Source: Candidatus Auribacterota bacterium | Lineage (GTDB): Bacteria > Auribacterota > Tritonobacteria > UBA1439 | Assembly (NCBI GenBank): GCA_026392035.1 | Contig: JAPLCX010000085.1 | Location: 1,335 to 65,334 of the forward strand | Direction: 5' to 3' | DNA length: 64,000 bases | Shown: positions 52,682-60,133 of the stretch, piece by piece | Layout of the letters: each line of letters starts with the position of its first letter | Numbering within the stretch: the stretch's first letter is position 1 | Position numbers and translations under genes: made by a program | Notes under the pieces: model-generated | The model's input: only the letters and a program-made list of their open reading frames with translations | Database searches by the model: none | Told to the model about the DNA's origin: nothing

Positions 52682-53361
52682 GTAAATGTCCCGAACTCCT
52701 CCGGATTCAAAACGCCACCCCAGTAGGCGCCGTATACCGCCTCCCCGATCTCCCTGAGGACGGTAATGCTCTGGGGGCTGAGCAGCGCCGCAATCCTGAG
52801 GCCTCCCAGATTCACCAATCCGGAGGGCGCATGTATTATCTCAAAATGGAGCTGGTATTGAAACTCCTTTGGCACGCGCATCGCGTTGCCGCTCCTGCCC
52901 ACCGTGCCGATCCGCTGTCCGGCGTCAACCCACTCGCCGATGGCGCGCGGCGACTCTTTCTTCAAGTGGGCATGGAGTGTATAGAAGTTATTCAAGTGAT
53001 CGATGATGACCGTGTAGCCATAGCCCCAGTCAGCGCCGCCGTTCATCTCGTTATAGCAGATGACCCCCGCCGCCGCCGCCCTCACGGCGGTCCCGGGGGG
53101 CGCAATGAAATCAATCCCCTTGTGATAGCTGATGCCGCTCCTCCGGACAGCCCCGAACTCGCCCTCACCCCTCCTGATCGCTCCCCCGCGCACAGGTTCT
53201 GCCGCGAGGCGGAACCCCCGGGCCTCCCTCGCCGCCTCAGCGGAGTCGCGCGGCCGCCAGTCGAACGCCCAGATCCGTTTCACAATCGAAGGATCTACTT
53301 CGGATGGGACTGGATTCGCTGCAACGAGCATGCAGAGAAAAAACTGAATCCACGCAGTCAT
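52669..53361 (-). CDS. M23-family metallopeptidase
   Basis: HKGID, GYG..V.I.H, HAHL, HFE. Confidence 0.9.
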   Translation of the reverse strand: MTAWIQFFLCMLVAANPVPSEVDPSIVKRIWAFDWRPRDSAEAAREARGFRLAAEPVRGGAIRRGEGEFGAVRRSGISYHKGIDFIAPPGTAVRAAAAGVICYNEMNGGADWGYGYTVIIDHLNNFYTLHAHLKKESPRAIGEWVDAGQRIGTVGRSGNAMRVPKEFQYQLHFEIIHAPSGLVNLGGLRIAALLSPQSITVLREIGEAVYGAYWGGVLNPEEFGTFTCAE

Positions 53362-53392
53362 TCAACCTTGCACTTTCGACTTTAGACCGTTG

Positions 53393-54157
53393 TCACCGCC
53401 CCCGCGCCAGCGTACAGACGTCAACCGCACGGGCGCCGCCCCTGAGGAGGACCCGCACGCACTCTCCAATCGTCGCGCCGGTGGTGAACACATCGTCAAT
53501 GAGGAGGAAATGCCTCCCCTCCACCAGATTTTCCCGTTCGACCGCGAACGCGCCCCTGACATTTCTCAATCGCGCTGCCCTCGTGAGCGTGATCTGAGAA
53601 TCGCGCTCCTCAACCCGGTTGAGCGCCCGATGCGCGACGGGCACTCCCATGCGGGCGCCCAGCTTGCGGGCCAGCGCCTCCGCTTGGTTAAAACCGCGCG
53701 CGCGGAGTTTTGCCCGGTGGAGCGGCACGGGCACGAGGCCGTCGAACGCGATCCCGCAGAATTCCCGCGCGGCACACTCAGCCATGAGCAGACCGAGGGG
53801 GCCTGCGAGCTCGCGTTTCCCTCCGTATTTAAATAGGTGGATGCACTGCATGAGGCCGTCCTCGTACAACCCAGCCGAGCGGCAGATGCCGAAGCGCGGC
53901 GGGGTAAGCCTGCACTCACCGCAGCGTGTATCAAAAGGAACCACCGCCTGGCCGGGGATGGGCCTCCCGCACCGGGGACAGAACGGCTGGCGCAGTCGCG
54001 GCAATTCGCTCCAGCATATATCGCAGAGACAGAGGGCGTGCCCCGGGTCAAGGGGTTTCATGCACAGGGCGCAATGTGCCGGAAACACAAGGCTCAAGAT
54101 TCCGCGCCACAGGGCTGCAAAAAGAGATTGGGTATTGCCCGCGCTCATAGCTGCCAA
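53393..54157 (-). CDS. comF: ComF family (double zinc ribbon + PRPP-binding fold)
   Basis: CALC, CDIC, CPRC, CGEC; VP.PL, RGFNQ, IDDVFTTG.T. Confidence 0.88.
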   Translation of the reverse strand: MAAMSAGNTQSLFAALWRGILSLVFPAHCALCMKPLDPGHALCLCDICWSELPRLRQPFCPRCGRPIPGQAVVPFDTRCGECRLTPPRFGICRSAGLYEDGLMQCIHLFKYGGKRELAGPLGLLMAECAAREFCGIAFDGLVPVPLHRAKLRARGFNQAEALARKLGARMGVPVAHRALNRVEERDSQITLTRAARLRNVRGAFAVERENLVEGRHFLLIDDVFTTGATIGECVRVLLRGGARAVDVCTLARGR

Positions 54158-54208
54158 CGCCCACAGCTCAAACCAAGGTATGCTTGAGCCTTAGGCTTTG
54201 GGCTGTAG

Positions 54209-55495
<1,287 letters not shown>

Positions 55496-55522
55496 CTAAT
55501 ATGCAATCTGCTCATTGCAAAT

Positions 55523-56689
55523 TCACAGTCCTGCTTCTCTCCTCAAGAGCGCCGCCTTGTCGGTCTTCTCCCAGGTGAACGCGGGCCCCCGGCGCCCGAA
55601 ATGGCCGTGCCGCGCGGTCTCTTTGTAGATCGGCCTCCTGAGCTTCAGGTGGTTAATCATCCCAGCGGGTGTGAGCGGGAAGTGCCTGCGGATGAGCGCG
55701 CTGATCTTCGACTCGGGAATCTTGCCGGTCCCCTCCGTATTCACAAAGATAGAGAGCGGTTCGGCGACCCCGATGGCATAGGAGAGCTGCACCTCGCACC
55801 TGTCAGCGAGTCCCGCCGCGACAACGTTCTTGGCGATGTAGCGGGCCATGTAGCTCGCGCTCCGGTCAACCTTCGTGGGATCCTTTCCGGAAAACGCCCC
55901 GCCGCCATGACATCCCCTCCCCCCGTAGGTGTCCACGATGATCTTGCGCCCCGTCACGCCGGTATCACCGGAGGGCCCGCCGATGACGAAGCGGCCCGTC
56001 GGATTGACGTGGTAGATCGTCTTCCGGTCAAGCATGCCTTTTGGCATGACAGGTTTTATCACCTTGTTGATTATCTCTTTCCGTATGACGGCGTGGGGAA
56101 TCCCGTCCCTGTGCTGCGTGGCGATGACCACCGTATGGACACGGACAGGCCTGCCGTCCTCGTACTCCACCGTGACCTGAGATTTGCCGTCCGGCCTCAG
56201 CCAGGGGATGATCCCCTTCTGCCGCGCGAACGCCAGGCGCTCGACCAGACGGTGGGCGAGGTGGATGGGGAGCGGCATAAGCTCAGGGGTCTCACGGCAG
56301 GCATAGCCAAACATGAGTCCCTGGTCGCCTGCCCCCGCCTCCTTGTGCAACCCCTTCCCGGCGGTGACGCCCTGCGAGATGTCGGGTGACTGCTTGTGTA
56401 CGGAAACGAGCACCGCGCAGTTCTTGTAATCGAATCCCATCTCCCCGCTCGTATAACCGATCTCCTTGATCGTCTGCCGCGCTATCTCCTGGTAGTCAAT
56501 CTCCGCGCTCGTGGTGATCTCGCCCGCGATCAGCACGAGCCCCGTGGTGAGGAGAGTCTCGCACGCGACCCTCCCGTACGGATCCTTGGCGTACACGGCG
56601 TCCAGGATCGCGTCGGATATCTGGTCCGCGATCTTATCCGGGTGACCCATCGTGACCGATTCCGAAGTGAATAGGTATTTTCTAGCCAC
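55523..56689 (-). CDS. metK: S-adenosylmethionine synthetase
   Basis: [26 protein letters not shown]; GTG start 56689. Confidence 0.97.
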
Positions 56690-56759
56690 AGCAACCTCCA
56701 TTCTTTCTCTGCCTGCCGCGCTAACTCTAACGCATCCAACCGCACACTGTCAATAAAGC

Positions 56760-56850
56760 AAACTCGAAACACGAGATTCCAAATCCTCAATAAATTCAAA
56801 ACCGCCAGTTCAATAATTTGAGTTTGTTTAGAGTTCAGGGTTTAGTGTTT
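56760..56850. repeat. Degenerate inverted heptamer arrays
   Basis: aaactcgaaac...aaatcc / ttagagttcagggtttagtgtttc. Confidence 0.45.
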
Positions 56851-57594
56851 CTCTCTTTTCGCTGTATACAGTGCGTCCGCCCTCCTGTACATCTCCAGGT
56901 CCCCGATATCATACCAGACGCCGCTGAACACGCAGGCGTACACGGGCTCTCGCTGATACAACCATTTGATGAAGTAACCTGGCGCGTCCATCTTATTACC
57001 CTCTTCCGCGTATACTCGAAAGAGCCCCAGTTTTTCCCTCGGGAACAGGTACATGCCGATCGCGGCGAGTGTCGAGGGGGGATCCGAGGGTTTCTCCTTG
57101 AAATCCACAACCCGGGAGTTCCTGTCCACTGCCAGGATGCCGTAGAGTTTGGCAGTCTCCCTGTCACGCACGTCGTATGCCGCAACGGTGGCGCCCTTGT
57201 CCCTGAAAAACGTCACGATATCCTTGAGGTCAAGACCAAACAGATTATCACCCAGCACCACGAGGAGATCATCGTCAACGCGCTCCCGCTCGAGTACAAA
57301 TCTGATGTCGCCAATCGCGCCGAGCTTGTCGTCGTCCGAGACCGTCCCGTCATCAATGACCTCGATCGGCGCGCGCATGCCCTTCTTCCGCGCCCCGGCC
57401 CACTCCCTGAAGGATGCGGAGAACCTGCTGTTCGTCACCACATAAATACGGTCTATCTCCTTAACGGCATCCAGGGCATCGGTGATGTAATCTATGATCG
57501 GTTTCCCGGCGATGGGTAACAGCGGTTTGGCCCTATCCTTCGTCAGAGGGTAGAGCCGCGTCGCGTACCCCGCCGCCATGATGAGCGCCTTCAT
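56842..57594 (-). CDS. NDP-sugar pyrophosphorylase-family nucleotidyltransferase
   Basis: AAGYATRL.P.T...KPL, GDNL, EKP, W.DIG. Confidence 0.92.
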   Translation of the reverse strand: MKALIMAAGYATRLYPLTKDRAKPLLPIAGKPIIDYITDALDAVKEIDRIYVVTNSRFSASFREWAGARKKGMRAPIEVIDDGTVSDDDKLGAIGDIRFVLERERVDDDLLVVLGDNLFGLDLKDIVTFFRDKGATVAAYDVRDRETAKLYGILAVDRNSRVVDFKEKPSDPPSTLAAIGMYLFPREKLGLFRVYAEEGNKMDAPGYFIKWLYQREPVYACVFSGVWYDIGDLEMYRRADALYTAKREKH

Positions 57595-57648
57595 ACGATA
57601 CCTCCCGTAGATTCCCGCGCGGGATGCCCCGTTCCCCGGTGATCTTCT

Positions 57649-57679
57649 AAAAAAAAAGAACCCACAATTGCCCGGGTTC
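57649..57679 (-). terminator. Intrinsic terminator in the 5' leader of the nucleotidyltransferase-metK-ahcY operon
   Basis: GAACCC-N10-GGGTTC followed by T9 on the minus strand. Confidence 0.6.
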
Positions 57680-57709
57680 CCTCACGGATCAGGATCACAG
57701 ACCGCACAT

Positions 57710-57738
57710 AGTATACGGAACGTGGTGCGGGCCGGCAA
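57710..57738 (-). promoter_or_regulatory. sigma70-type promoter
   Basis: TTGCCG-N17-TATACT on the minus strand. Confidence 0.65.
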
Positions 57739-57837
57739 GGATATTTTCACGCGCTGTGGGCTCAGACCCGAGATGCTGAGCGGCGCCTGCTGAGCAGGAA
57801 CTCCCATGCCGACTCCATTGCACTCATGTGGAGCCTC

Positions 57838-58785
57838 TCATCCCCCGAGGGCATACATCCCGTACCGTGAGAGTTTCATATCCAGATTGTGCCCCTCGGG
57901 TTTCGCGCTCACCGCCTTTACAATCAATTCAGCGACTGGGTGCCCGCGCCTCAGGGGGCCGCGCAGGTCAATCCCCTCGCGGGAGAACAGACAGGGGAGA
58001 AGCATGCCGTCGGCAGTGAGGCGGAGCCGATTGCACGCCGCGCAAAATGGCTCCGTGCGGGAGAGAATGAACCCGATGCTGCTCCCGCCATTCCGATGCC
58101 TGAAACTCTTCGCCGGCCCCCCTCCCGTTTCCCTGGAGGGCTCGATCCCCTCCCGCTCATTCATCGATTCGACAACCGGTGTGAGCGAAACGAAGAGGTC
58201 CTCGCCGCACACAGGCATGTACTCAATGAATCTGACATCGAGCCGCTCACGCCGCCCCCAGGCGATGAAATCATTTATTTCGTCGTCATTGACGCCGCGC
58301 ATGACCACCACATTCACCTTTACCGACCGTATCCCCTCTCCACGCGCCGCTTCGATCCCGCAAAACACCTCGCCGAGCCCTCCGGCACCCGTGATCCGAC
58401 GAAACGTATCCCCGTCGAGCGTATCCAGCCCCACGTTGATCCTCTTCAACCCCGCCCCCTTCAGCTCCCTCGCGAACCGCCGGAGCAAAAGCCCGTTGGT
58501 GGTGAGTGAGCAGTCCACGCCTCTCTCTGAGAGCGCATTGAGAAACCAGATGATGCCGCGGCGCACGAGCGGCTCCCCACCGGTAATGCGAAACCTGCTG
58601 AATCCGAGGAGACGCGCCGCGTCGATCACCGCGAGGATTTCCTCATAGCGCAGGATCTCCTCGTGAGGGATTGAGGTGACTCCCTCCCCGGGCATGCAGT
58701 AGAAGCAGCGCAAGTTACAGCGATCGGTAACGGAAATACGCAGGTAATCAACCGCCCTGCCGTATGTATCAACGAGAGGCTTCAT
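57838..58785 (-). CDS. moaA: GTP 3',8-cyclase (radical SAM)
   Basis: YLRISVTDRCNLRCFYCMP, TGGEP, C..CNRLR.T.DG...CL, C-terminal GG. Confidence 0.96.
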   Translation of the reverse strand: MKPLVDTYGRAVDYLRISVTDRCNLRCFYCMPGEGVTSIPHEEILRYEEILAVIDAARLLGFSRFRITGGEPLVRRGIIWFLNALSERGVDCSLTTNGLLLRRFARELKGAGLKRINVGLDTLDGDTFRRITGAGGLGEVFCGIEAARGEGIRSVKVNVVVMRGVNDDEINDFIAWGRRERLDVRFIEYMPVCGEDLFVSLTPVVESMNEREGIEPSRETGGGPAKSFRHRNGGSSIGFILSRTEPFCAACNRLRLTADGMLLPCLFSREGIDLRGPLRRGHPVAELIVKAVSAKPEGHNLDMKLSRYGMYALGG

Positions 58786-58895
58786 TGTCTCACCCCCTTG
58801 TATTCCCAGTGGGTAAGGCCTCGGTTATGAAGGGTTGAAACGGAATTTCCGTAAGGGGTCACTTATAGAGGGGGGCCACAGATCCCGCTAAGCGG

Positions 58896-58980
58896 GACGG
58901 ATTATGACGGATATTCACAGATGAAAAGAAAGCTTCATCTGCGGCCATCCGTGTGGTTATCCGTGAAAATCCGTGGCGAA
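58896..58980. repeat. Inverted ACGGA/ACAGAT ~9-bp arrays next to a GATCCCGCTAAGCGGGAC palindrome
   Basis: gacggattatgacggatattcacagat ... atctgcggccatccgtgtggttatccgtgaaaatccgtgg. Confidence 0.6.
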
Positions 58981-59117
58981 CATCATTTACCGTTACCCCT
59001 GCAAAACTGACCCATTACGAATTTCCGGAGCCGGGACTGGAAGGTTATGCGCGCGGCGCGGCGAAGCATTTTCGCCCCCTCATACGATCAGCCAAGAGAC
59101 ATTCCCGCCGGGCGCCG

Positions 59118-59222
59118 CTACTTAACCACCGGCTGAACCTGTGCTTTGACCTTCAGTCTCTTTCTCTTGAGGTATTTCTTCCTGCGTATCCTCTTCTCAC
59201 TCACACGATGCGGCTTTGACAT
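59118..59222 (-). CDS. Very small basic protein (34 aa), absent from the supplied track
   Basis: MSKPHRVSEKRIRRKKYLKRKRLKVKAQVQPVVK with an AGGAGG RBS. Confidence 0.55.
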   Translation of the reverse strand: MSKPHRVSEKRIRRKKYLKRKRLKVKAQVQPVVK

Positions 59223-59278
59223 GCGACCTCCTCTATACAGTATTATTCCACTCCTCGATTAGCATTCCTTCCCACAAC

Positions 59279-59698
59279 TCAGGGGTGCTCACCGAACAGC
59301 AACGCGATTTCTCTCTCCGCTTCTTCTCCATTCGCAGACGCGTGCACGAGATTCCGCTCGATATGAAGCCGGTCAATCCCAAGGGCGCCGCGAATCGTCC
59401 CGGCCTCAGCGAGGCGCGGATCCTTGTTGCCCACGAGACCTCTCACGCGCCGTGCCACGTCACCGTCCCCCGCCAGGATGAACAGGCCGACCTCACCGCT
59501 CAGGAGAAAATTGACGTTCACCTCGAAAAACGGCTTGCCCCGATGCTCCCCGTAGAGCCCTTCGACCTCCTCGCGGGAGAGCCGTCTCCGCGTCGAGCGC
59601 ACCACCCTCATGCCCGCGGAAGCGACTCTCTCAAGAATGGTTTTCTCGAGCCCCCTCCGGTAGGCATCCGGCTTGATCATCAGCAGTGTCCTGCCCAT
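59279..59698 (-). CDS. ndk: Nucleoside diphosphate kinase
   Basis: TL.MIKPDA, Y.EH.GKPFF, GTIRG, N.VHAS. Confidence 0.92.
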   Translation of the reverse strand: MGRTLLMIKPDAYRRGLEKTILERVASAGMRVVRSTRRRLSREEVEGLYGEHRGKPFFEVNVNFLLSGEVGLFILAGDGDVARRVRGLVGNKDPRLAEAGTIRGALGIDRLHIERNLVHASANGEEAEREIALLFGEHP

Positions 59699-59818
59699 AG
59701 TTCTGGAAGAACCTCCTCATTGTAACAAATGGCACACCGTGATCACATCAGATCTTCGGGAGAAGGTTCACCCGGTCCGGCGGGTCATTCGCACCGCACA
59801 CCCGGAGATACACCAGCC

Positions 59819-60133
59819 TCACAGCAAACGGCCGTCGAGGATCTTTCGTATTCTCGGGGAAAGTTCACTGAGTGTGAACGGCTTCCGTATGAAATCACTC
59901 GCCTCTTTCTCAAGGATATGCCGCCAGCCCCTGTCCGGGATATATCCGGTACATATGATGACCGGGAGAGAGCGCGCGGATTCCCGTATCCGCTTAAATG
60001 CCTGTACCCCACCCATCCCCTTCATCACCATATCGAGGATGACTAGGTTTGCCCCCATGATCGTTCCCGTTGCCTCTTACGAGCCTTCATAAACGACAAC
60101 CCTGTTCCTTCCGGTCTCCTTCGCATTATACAT
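59819..60133 (-). pseudogene. Deletion scar: GGDEF C-terminal tail followed by an N-terminally truncated receiver
   Basis: 60077-60133 reads MYNAKETGRNRVVVY; the receiver begins at LVILD and lacks beta1. Confidence 0.6.

What the first reader, a model, noticed from the sequence alone, without database searches (positions are those of the whole stretch)
57649..57738. Short terminator-containing leader before the nucleotidyltransferase-metK-ahcY operon: candidate new riboswitch or attenuator
Seen: TTGCCG-N17-TATACT, then about 25 nt (GGUCUGUGAUCCUGAUCCGUGAGG) overlapping a hairpin + U9, ending ~55 nt before the ATG. Known: metK and ahcY are typical targets of SAM/SAH riboswitches, but I see no match to SAM-I/II/III or SAH consensus. 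Inference: an unrecognised compact switch, or an independent small RNA.
Basis: partly seen in the sequence, partly recalled or inferred. Interest (0 to 1): 0.6.

Follow-up and report, generated by a model that had tools for sequence, protein, structure and literature searches.

The report
Conserved terminator in a sugar-nucleotidyltransferase leader
A promoter followed about 30 bases later by a hairpin-plus-U9 terminator sits in front of a sugar-phosphate nucleotidyltransferase gene and recurs in 13 related uncultured Auribacterota, so it is a real leader attenuator, but nothing supports a SAM/SAH or other riboswitch.

Summary

The module recurs upstream of the orthologous NTP-transferase gene in 13 loci of one Auribacterota family. 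It is single-copy per genome and was not found in the rest of the phylum.

It is not just the moaA terminator. Three lineages have a divergent upstream gene. Four lineages leave only 23-31 nt between the U-run and the start codon, so read-through is the only route to expression. That makes it a leader attenuator.

A riboswitch is not supported:
- No Rfam match in the window or in 12 relatives' loci.
- The 5' ~23 nt are not conserved.
- RNAalifold finds only the terminator helix.
- 12 of 13 nascent RNAs fold into the terminator with no competing antiterminator.

metK also has its own conserved promoter (TTGACAG-N17/18-TAnAGT), so the leader chiefly governs the nucleotidyltransferase, not metK-ahcY.

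Also rejected: a leader peptide, a BglG-type antiterminator and a NusG paralogue. How read-through is set is unresolved. Candidates are a constitutive leak, UTP kinetics or an unknown factor. Modest interest.

The parts
57733..57738 (-). -35 hexamer TTGCCG, preceded by an A-rich GAAAAT stretch that is shared by several relatives
   Evidence: scan. TTGCC/TTGGG/TTGGA/TTGCG/TTGTCG occupies the same place in 11 relatives with the promoter visible.
57710..57715 (-). -10 hexamer TATACT
   Evidence: It is invariant in 11 of 11 relatives that show the promoter. TTGnnn-N16-18-TATACT occurs 53 times in this genome, and by eye several hits (e.g. C6, C10, C57, C76, C106, C118) are followed within ~25-60 nt by an SD and start codon.
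57680..57703 (-). 5' leader of about 23 nt. The TSS is inferred near 57703, about 7 nt after the -10, and has not been mapped.
   Evidence: Its sequence is not conserved, but the -10-to-hairpin distance is constant at 27-30 nt. There is no consensus structure.
57658..57679 (-). Terminator hairpin: GAACCC(G) / (U)GGGUUC arms around an 8-10-nt loop
   Evidence: dG -10 to -13 kcal/mol here, -8 to -19 in relatives. Six core pairs are paired in 13 of 13 sequences, with one compensatory A-U<->G-C pair.
57649..57657 (-). U9 tract
   Evidence: Relatives have 6-9 T (mg200 has T4CT; G005 has TCT5).
57595..57648 (-). Spacer with SD GGGAGG (57606-57601) before the ATG
   Evidence: The spacer is 23-54 nt in most relatives, 113-115 nt in the G002 clade, and 261 nt in mg116 because of an insertion.
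56842..57594 (-). Sugar-1-phosphate nucleotidyltransferase, 250 aa: the gene behind the leader
   Evidence: PF00483 at 7.9e-39. It falls below every NCBIfam equivalog cut-off. The nearest solved structures are UTP-glucose-1-P uridylyltransferase and RmlA.
56724..56753 (-). Separate metK promoter, TTGACA-N18-TAGAGT
   Evidence: (A)TTGACAG-N17/18-TAnAGT is conserved in 11 of 12 family members, including genomes that lack the leader element.
54209..56701 (-). metK (56701-55523) and ahcY (55483-54209)
   Evidence: NTPase-metK(-ahcY) synteny holds across the phylum.
57838..58785 (-). moaA, the upstream same-strand gene. No terminator of its own was predicted before the leader hairpin.
   Evidence: TIGR02666 at 320.7 bits, above its cut-off. 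The scan found no other terminator-like site downstream of its stop.

Best explanation
This is a promoter-proximal intrinsic terminator, i.e. a leader attenuator, for the sugar-1-phosphate nucleotidyltransferase gene. It is not a riboswitch. A sigma70-type promoter typical of this organism starts an RNA near 57703 (inferred). After ~23 unconserved nucleotides the RNA forms the conserved GAACCC/GGGUUC hairpin followed by U9, so many polymerases should release a ~55-nt RNA (inferred from the anatomy). Only polymerases that read through reach the SD and the gene. In this genome the same hairpin is also the first terminator after moaA. There is no RNA sensor and no antiterminator fold. Read-through is therefore set either constitutively, by a moderate and leaky hairpin with a large loop, or from outside the leader. 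The candidate I favour among regulated options is kinetic sensitivity of termination to NTP (UTP) supply at the long U-run. That would match an enzyme whose nearest structural relatives use UTP or dTTP. An unknown factor recognising the sequence-conserved stem is the other option. metK-ahcY are transcribed mainly from their own promoter. The confidence figure covers only the core claim (leader attenuator, not a riboswitch); the UTP-kinetic idea is conjecture.
For: Shown: the anatomy. Shown: the module precedes the orthologous gene in 13 loci of one family, with unalignable leader sequence but a fixed -10-to-hairpin distance of 27-30 nt. Shown: the hairpin is 100% paired in 13 sequences, with one compensatory pair and four invariant pairs. 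Shown: it is single-copy per genome and confined to family f1 among 79 phylum genomes. Shown: the upstream gene is divergent in G004/mg203 (bactofilin) and mg200 (beta-propeller), so it is not simply an upstream gene's terminator. Shown: only 23-31 nt separate the U-run from the start codon in G005, G004, mg203 and G007, which leaves no room for a second promoter. Shown: the promoter type is common in this genome. Shown: hairpin-plus-T-run motifs occur elsewhere in the genome, several with long stems, 7 of 46 within 150 nt after a proxy ORF stop. Shown: the terminator is the MFE fold of the nascent RNA in 12 of 13 cases. Shown: metK has its own conserved promoter. Inferred: the TSS position, actual termination, and any dependence on NTPs or a factor.
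Against: No transcript ends are available; the metatranscriptome contigs found do not cover the leader. Hairpin covariation is thin, with one compensatory pair; shuffles reach the observed score in 8 of 500 and the slide controls are only moderately lower. Sequence-level conservation of the stem is unusual for a plain terminator and hints at something more specific that I could not identify. The element is absent from the same-genus relative G001, from G003 and from three metagenome contigs. There the gene follows moaA or a 34-aa gene directly, so it is dispensable. The UTP-kinetic idea has no direct support, and the enzyme's nucleotide specificity is unknown.
Confidence: 0.6

Rival explanations
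1. A new compact riboswitch. The ~23-nt leader plus the hairpin binds a metabolite (SAM, SAH, a sugar nucleotide or an NTP), and binding changes termination.
For: The genomic setting next to metK/ahcY. The constant leader length and the sequence-conserved stem suggest constraint beyond simple termination.
Against: No Rfam match in the window or in 12 relatives' loci. No conserved nucleotides in the leader or in the loop. RNAalifold predicts only the terminator helix. There is no competing fold in 12 of 13 nascent RNAs. metK has its own promoter.
Confidence: 0.07
2. An independent small RNA gene of ~55 nt with its own promoter and terminator that acts in trans. Read-through into the nucleotidyltransferase gene would be incidental.
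For: A consensus-like promoter with an A-rich upstream stretch and a canonical terminator delimit a discrete short transcript. Work in E. coli suggests extensive regulation by premature termination in 5' UTRs (PMC7815308 abstract); that such fragments can act in trans is my recollection of that paper, not read here.
Against: The 5' part that would carry a seed is not conserved even between genera of one family. The module always sits directly before the same gene and travels with it when the neighbourhood changes. Several relatives have no room for another promoter, so the downstream gene depends on read-through.
Confidence: 0.13
3. The inverted repeat G[A/G]ACCC-N7-11-GGGT[T/C]C acts at the DNA level, as an operator for a repressor sitting at about +23 to +44 as a roadblock.
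For: The half-sites are conserved in sequence and lie at a fixed distance from the promoter. The compensatory change also preserves DNA symmetry.
Against: The T-run directly after the repeat is conserved in all 13 loci, which an operator would not need. Half-site spacing varies from 7 to 11 bp. There are no further sites in the genome: 11 loose matches against 23 in the reversed-sequence control.
Confidence: 0.05
4. The hairpin is only the moaA operon's terminator, and the promoter-like sequence upstream of it is fortuitous or drives nothing relevant.
For: In this genome moaA lies upstream on the same strand and has no other predicted terminator.
Against: The promoter is conserved with an invariant -10 at a fixed distance. 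The module persists where the upstream gene is divergent. In relatives without the module the gene follows moaA by only 16-45 nt with no terminator.
Confidence: 0.04
5. Leader-peptide (pyrBI/trp-like) attenuation: a short ORF is translated across the hairpin, and a closely following ribosome prevents termination.
For: In 7 of 10 leaders the frame that ends in the TGA overlapping the start codon is open across the hairpin.
Against: That frame is interrupted in mg198, mg200 and mg116. The frame relative to the identical hairpin differs between G000 and mg115. G004 has no start codon in it. The TGA follows automatically from the conserved Met-Lys start.
Confidence: 0.02

Closest known systems
Premature intrinsic termination in bacterial 5' UTRs (attenuators mapped by 3'-end sequencing; PMC7815308, PMC5314783)
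   Same: Promoter, short leader, hairpin plus U-run before the SD of the regulated gene. A short terminated RNA is expected as a product.
   Different: The riboregulators defined in PMC5314783 have two mutually exclusive folds (terminator and antiterminator). No alternative fold or sensor is detectable here.
E. coli pyrBI attenuator and other NTP-sensitive leaders
   Same: A U-rich intrinsic terminator in the leader of a nucleotide-consuming pathway gene. Control without an aptamer.
   Different: pyrBI needs a translated leader ORF and UTP-sensitive pause sites upstream. No conserved leader ORF exists here, and no U-rich pause region precedes the hairpin.
SAM and SAH riboswitch classes (Rfam SAM-I to SAM-VI, SAM/SAH, SAH)
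   Same: Genomic neighbourhood with metK and ahcY. A terminator that could serve as an expression platform.
   Different: No covariance-model match and no conserved aptamer. metK starts from its own promoter with a ~30-nt UTR.
Factor-dependent read-through of leader terminators: lambda Q at PR'-tR', RfaH/LoaP NusG paralogues, BglG/SacY RAT systems (from my own knowledge)
   Same: A constitutive promoter followed by a nearby terminator, as in systems that need a factor to be passed. LoaP and RfaH act on polysaccharide or sugar-nucleotide operons.
   Different: There is one NusG gene per genome in all 8 family genomes. No CAT_RBD protein was found although the controls were positive. No phage context.

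Membership tests
SAM/SAH riboswitches (Rfam SAM-I, II, III, IV, V, VI, SAM/SAH, SAH) | Match to the family covariance model | tested here: not met
   cmscan at E<=10 over window 53000-60000 gave only two chance hits elsewhere. Twelve relatives' loci at E<=1 gave none in the leaders.
SAM/SAH riboswitches (Rfam SAM-I, II, III, IV, V, VI, SAM/SAH, SAH) | Sits in the 5' UTR of the SAM-cycle gene that it controls | tested here: not met
   metK has its own conserved TTGACAG-N17/18-TAnAGT promoter in the NTPase-metK spacer. The leader precedes the nucleotidyltransferase gene.
Riboswitch or terminator-antiterminator riboregulator (any class) | Conserved aptamer nucleotides or structure upstream of the terminator | tested here: not met
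   Right-anchored alignment of 13 leaders shows no conserved column in the 5' 23 nt. RNAalifold finds only the terminator helix.
Riboswitch or terminator-antiterminator riboregulator (any class) | A mutually exclusive antiterminator fold | tested here: not met
   The terminator is the MFE of the nascent RNA in 12 of 13 sequences, with no shared competitor.
Intrinsic (Rho-independent) terminator | G+C-rich hairpin immediately followed by a U-run | tested here: met
   a 6-8-bp core, dG -8 to -19 kcal/mol; a T-run of 6-9 in 11 of 13 (mg200 T4CT, G005 TCT5).
Intrinsic (Rho-independent) terminator | Pairing maintained in relatives | tested here: met
   78 of 78 cells are paired, one pair carries compensatory changes and four are invariant. 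Covariation support is thin.
Intrinsic (Rho-independent) terminator | RNA 3' ends at the U-run; release of RNA polymerase | not testable with these tools
   Only Logan contigs of four metatranscriptomes were available, and none covers 57549-57949.
Leader-peptide attenuation (trp, pyrBI type) | Conserved translatable leader ORF overlapping the terminator | tested here: not met
   The frame is interrupted in 3 of 10 leaders, shifts between close relatives, and lacks a start codon in G004.
BglG/SacY-type RAT antitermination | A CAT_RBD (PF03123) antiterminator protein encoded in the genome | tested here: not met
   0 of 8 family genomes, while the control genomes rang in 4.
RfaH/LoaP/UpxY-type specialised NusG antitermination | A second NusG (PF02357) paralogue | tested here: not met
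   Exactly one match per genome in 8 of 8.
ANTAR two-hairpin antitermination | An ANTAR (PF03861) protein encoded in the genome | tested here: inconclusive
   No hits, but the control genomes did not ring either.
Independent trans-acting sRNA gene | Own promoter and own terminator delimiting a short transcript | tested here: met
Independent trans-acting sRNA gene | Conserved single-stranded seed; the neighbouring gene expressed independently | tested here: not met
   The leader is not conserved. A 23-31-nt spacer leaves no room for another promoter in four lineages.

The most novel reading that the evidence does not exclude
The sequence-conserved GAACCC/GGGUUC terminator, held at a fixed ~23 nt from the transcript's 5' end, is the sensor itself. 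It would be a minimal attenuator whose read-through is set directly by UTP/NTP kinetics at the long U-run or by a still-unknown RNA-binding factor. That would couple sugar-nucleotide synthesis to nucleotide supply in Auribacterota without any aptamer or alternative fold.
Probability: 0.15. Interest if true: 0.55.

Novelty: new member of a known kind. Interest (0 to 1): 0.33.

Why it matters
It gives a first, clade-specific cis-regulatory element for an uncultured PVC-related phylum in which nothing is known about gene control. It also shows that a metK/ahcY neighbourhood does not by itself imply a SAM or SAH riboswitch. Here metK has its own conserved promoter and a short, unstructured UTR. 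If termination at this leader proved to respond to UTP or to a factor that reads the conserved stem, it would be a very small, aptamer-free attenuator worth biochemical study. If it is only a leaky terminator, it is an ordinary expression-setting device.

Tried and rejected
**Expression data.** Four metatranscriptome runs held small shares of the region. Their Logan contigs cover parts of moaA, the NTPase gene, metK and ahcY, the ahcY-metK junction, and (in a relative) the NTPase-metK spacer. None covers 57549-57949, so they say nothing about the leader.

**Leader peptide across the terminator.** Rejected.

**Helix between the 5' leader and the region after the U-run.** Duplex energies are no better than shuffles (Fisher p = 0.16).

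**Pseudoknot between loop and leader.** Inspected by eye. It is plausible only in G005 and is not shared.

**Regulon of the palindrome in the genome.** 11 loose matches against 23 in the reversed control. The strict hairpin-plus-T pattern is single-copy in each of four genomes.

**Covariance model R1 over 79 phylum genomes.** Only the known sites were found, plus one generic GAACCCC/GGGGUUC terminator inside a repeat array in G063. That hit lacks the promoter and leader module.

**Trans-acting factor families.** BglG-type antiterminators and NusG paralogues were not found. The ANTAR search is uninformative because the controls were silent.

**Plus-strand promoter reading.** The -35 position would be GGATCA and is not conserved. 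This was checked by eye.

**pyrG-like reiterative transcription.** There is no conserved initially transcribed sequence.

**Pfam on the ORF inside the mg116 insertion.** No family.

**Earlier scan notes by sequence.** Nothing found.

Full report
**What is there**

The finding lies on the minus strand. The gene order on that strand is:
- moaA (58785-57838; TIGR02666 above its cut-off)
- the leader
- a 250-aa PF00483 sugar-phosphate nucleotidyltransferase (57594-56842)
- metK (56701-55523)
- ahcY (55483-54209)
- a ComF-like gene

Searches confirm the leader features:
- TTGCCG-N17-TATACT at 57738-57710
- 30 nt to the base of a hairpin, with GAACCC at 57679-57674 pairing with GGGUUC at 57663-57658 around an 8-10-nt loop
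- U9 at 57657-57649
- 54 nt to the ATG, with GGGAGG as the SD

By itself this is not more than chance. The scan expects about one promoter-like and two terminator-like sites per 2.5 kb. The whole leader also folds no better than shuffles.

**Who has it**

Record titles place the genome in Candidatus Auribacterota. BLAST of the leader DNA against 60 relatives matched only the first codons of the gene. I therefore fetched the orthologous genes and read their upstream regions. Sources were 30 loci from the phylum, metagenome contigs and contigs that encode close homologues.

Thirteen loci carry the same module:
- GTDB genomes: G000, G002, G004, G005, G006, G007
- metagenome contigs: mg115, mg116, mg198, mg200, mg202, mg203, mg205

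All belong to one family, at 68-93% protein identity. The module consists of:
- a TTGnnn -35, often behind a GAAAAT stretch
- an invariant TATACT -10
- 27-30 nt of unalignable sequence
- G[A/G][A/G]CCC ... GGGU[U/C]C
- a T-run of 6-9 in 11 of them (mg200 has T4CT, G005 TCT5)

This is shown. The module is absent in:
- the same-genus genome G001
- G003
- contigs L195, L197 and L204

In those, the gene follows moaA or a 34-aa gene by 16-100 nt. Other families of the phylum have ptsI directly upstream and no module. The strict hairpin-plus-T pattern is single-copy in each genome tested. A covariance model built from six leaders found only these sites in 79 phylum genomes. Its one extra hit was an unrelated terminator in a repeat array.

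**Why it is a leader attenuator and not just moaA's terminator**

- In G004 and mg203 the upstream gene is a divergently oriented bactofilin. In mg200 it is a divergent beta-propeller gene. The module is intact in all three.
- The distance from the U-run to the start codon is only 23-31 nt in G005, G004, mg203 and G007. That cannot hold another promoter, so transcripts must pass the hairpin to express the gene.
- TTGnnn-N16-18-TATACT occurs 53 times in this genome, and by eye several hits are followed within 25-60 nt by an SD and start codon. The promoter call is therefore reasonable.
- Hairpin-plus-T6 motifs are rare (46 strict hits in 2.8 Mb, only 7 within 150 nt after a proxy ORF stop) but several have long stems. 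One, 23 nt after a stop, has nearly the same GGGGAACCC/GGGUUCCCC stem.
- In G000 no other terminator follows moaA, so the hairpin probably also ends moaA transcripts.

**Structure**

After model-based realignment, all 78 cells of the six core pairs are paired. One pair shows A-U to G-C compensation in three sequences and G-U in one, one pair has a single A-U to G-U change, and four pairs never vary. Shuffles reach the observed covariation score in 8 of 500. RNAalifold predicts this helix and nothing else. Support for the helix is therefore real but thin, and it rests mostly on sequence invariance.

**Why it is not a riboswitch**

- Rfam 15 gives nothing relevant at E<=10 over 53000-60000 or at E<=1 over 12 relatives' loci of about 50 kb.
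- The 5' 23 nt and the loop have no conserved positions.
- The nascent RNA folds into the terminator as its MFE in 12 of 13 cases, with no shared competitor. The two-state design that defines such riboregulators (PMC5314783) is therefore missing.
- The SAM/SAH argument is weakened further by metK's own promoter. The NTPase-metK spacer holds (A)TTGACAG-N17/18-TAnAGT about 35-45 nt before metK in 11 of 12 family members. These include genomes without the leader module (56753-56724 in the window).
- NTPase-metK(-ahcY) synteny is nevertheless conserved across the phylum and in some Omnitrophota. Some co-transcription is therefore likely.

**Other mechanisms tested**

- Leader peptide. A frame ending in the TGA that overlaps the start codon is open across the hairpin in several leaders. 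It is broken in mg198, mg200 and mg116, shifts relative to the identical hairpin between G000 and mg115, and has no start codon in G004. Rejected.
- Leader pairing with the region after the U-run. No better than shuffled.
- DNA operator. The palindrome has no other copies in the genome. Its half-site spacing varies from 7 to 11 bp, and the conserved T-run would be unexplained.
- BglG-type antiterminators. None in 8 family genomes, with working controls.
- Specialised NusG paralogues. Each genome has exactly one NusG.
- ANTAR. The search was uninformative.

**What remains**

Two features go beyond a plain terminator and are unexplained. First, the stem is conserved in sequence although its flanks are saturated. 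Second, the hairpin keeps a fixed distance from the promoter while the downstream spacer varies from 23 to 115 nt.

The enzyme is a generic sugar-1-phosphate nucleotidyltransferase. Its nearest solved relatives are UTP-glucose-1-P uridylyltransferase and RmlA, and it falls below every NCBIfam equivalog cut-off.

My working model is a moderate, leaky terminator that sets or limits expression from a strong promoter. Termination efficiency may be sensitive to UTP supply at the long U-run. That termination depends on elongation rate and NTP concentration is established knowledge that I recall; I did not check it here. An unknown factor that reads the stem is the alternative. Neither could be tested.

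**Expression data**

Public runs that hold this DNA are freshwater and pond sediment metagenomes. Four metatranscriptomes held small shares. Their contigs do not cover the leader.

**Verdict**

The element is a real, family-restricted leader attenuator of the nucleotidyltransferase gene. It is not in Rfam, and no paper I searched describes it. The riboswitch reading is unsupported. The element is a new member of a known kind and of modest interest.

Noticed in passing
window 56724-56753 (-) and the NTPase-metK spacers of L007, L010, L011, L012, L115, L116, L195, L198, L200, L009: metK has a near-consensus promoter, (A)TTGACAG-N17/18-TAnAGT, conserved in 11 of 12 family members. It is followed by a ~30-nt UTR partly conserved as GCGCGGCAGGCAAAGAAAGAACGGAGG. 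No riboswitch precedes metK or ahcY in this family.
   Followed up: partly
loci L013-L034, L038-L050, L119, L123-L124: The gene order nucleotidyltransferase-metK(-ahcY), with 20-150-nt spacers, is conserved across Auribacterota and in some Omnitrophota-labelled MAGs. In most other families it sits directly after ptsI. The enzyme's substrate and the reason for this linkage are unknown.
   Followed up: partly
L116 2740-2950: In a 91%-identical metagenome relative, a ~210-nt insert bounded by ~40-nt inverted repeats and T-runs on both sides sits exactly after the leader's U-run. Its 68-aa ORF has no Pfam match.
   Followed up: partly
L115 100-190; L012/L037 upstream of the promoter; L007 NTPase-metK spacer; window 56770-56790: Short GGGATTT / CCCAAATCC repeat runs recur in the intergenic spacers around this operon in several family members. 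In L115 they replace the promoter region. They look like remnants or ends of a small mobile or repeat element.
   Followed up: no
L195 2405-2460: In a relative that lacks moaA and the leader module, a perfect 25-bp inverted repeat with a 3-nt loop and no T-run lies between the 34-aa gene and the nucleotidyltransferase gene.
   Followed up: no
G000 contig C118 104542-104570 (+): A hairpin-plus-T6 motif 23 nt after a proxy ORF stop has almost the same stem as the leader hairpin (GGGGAACCC-GCAA-GGGTTCCCC-T6). Overall only 46 strict hairpin-plus-T6 motifs occur in the 2.8-Mb genome.
   Followed up: partly
L195 2291-2395, L197 1292-1396; window ~59118-59222: The 34-aa Lys/Arg-rich gene after ndk that the scan noted earlier is also called as a gene in relatives' contigs, in the order ndk, 34-aa gene, (moaA), nucleotidyltransferase.
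   Followed up: partly
L218 (G063:C333) 1-340: An array of repeated GAACCCCGTTGGGGTTC and GGACCCCAAAGGGGTCC hairpins in another Auribacterota family. It was picked up by the covariance model as a false relative.
   Followed up: no
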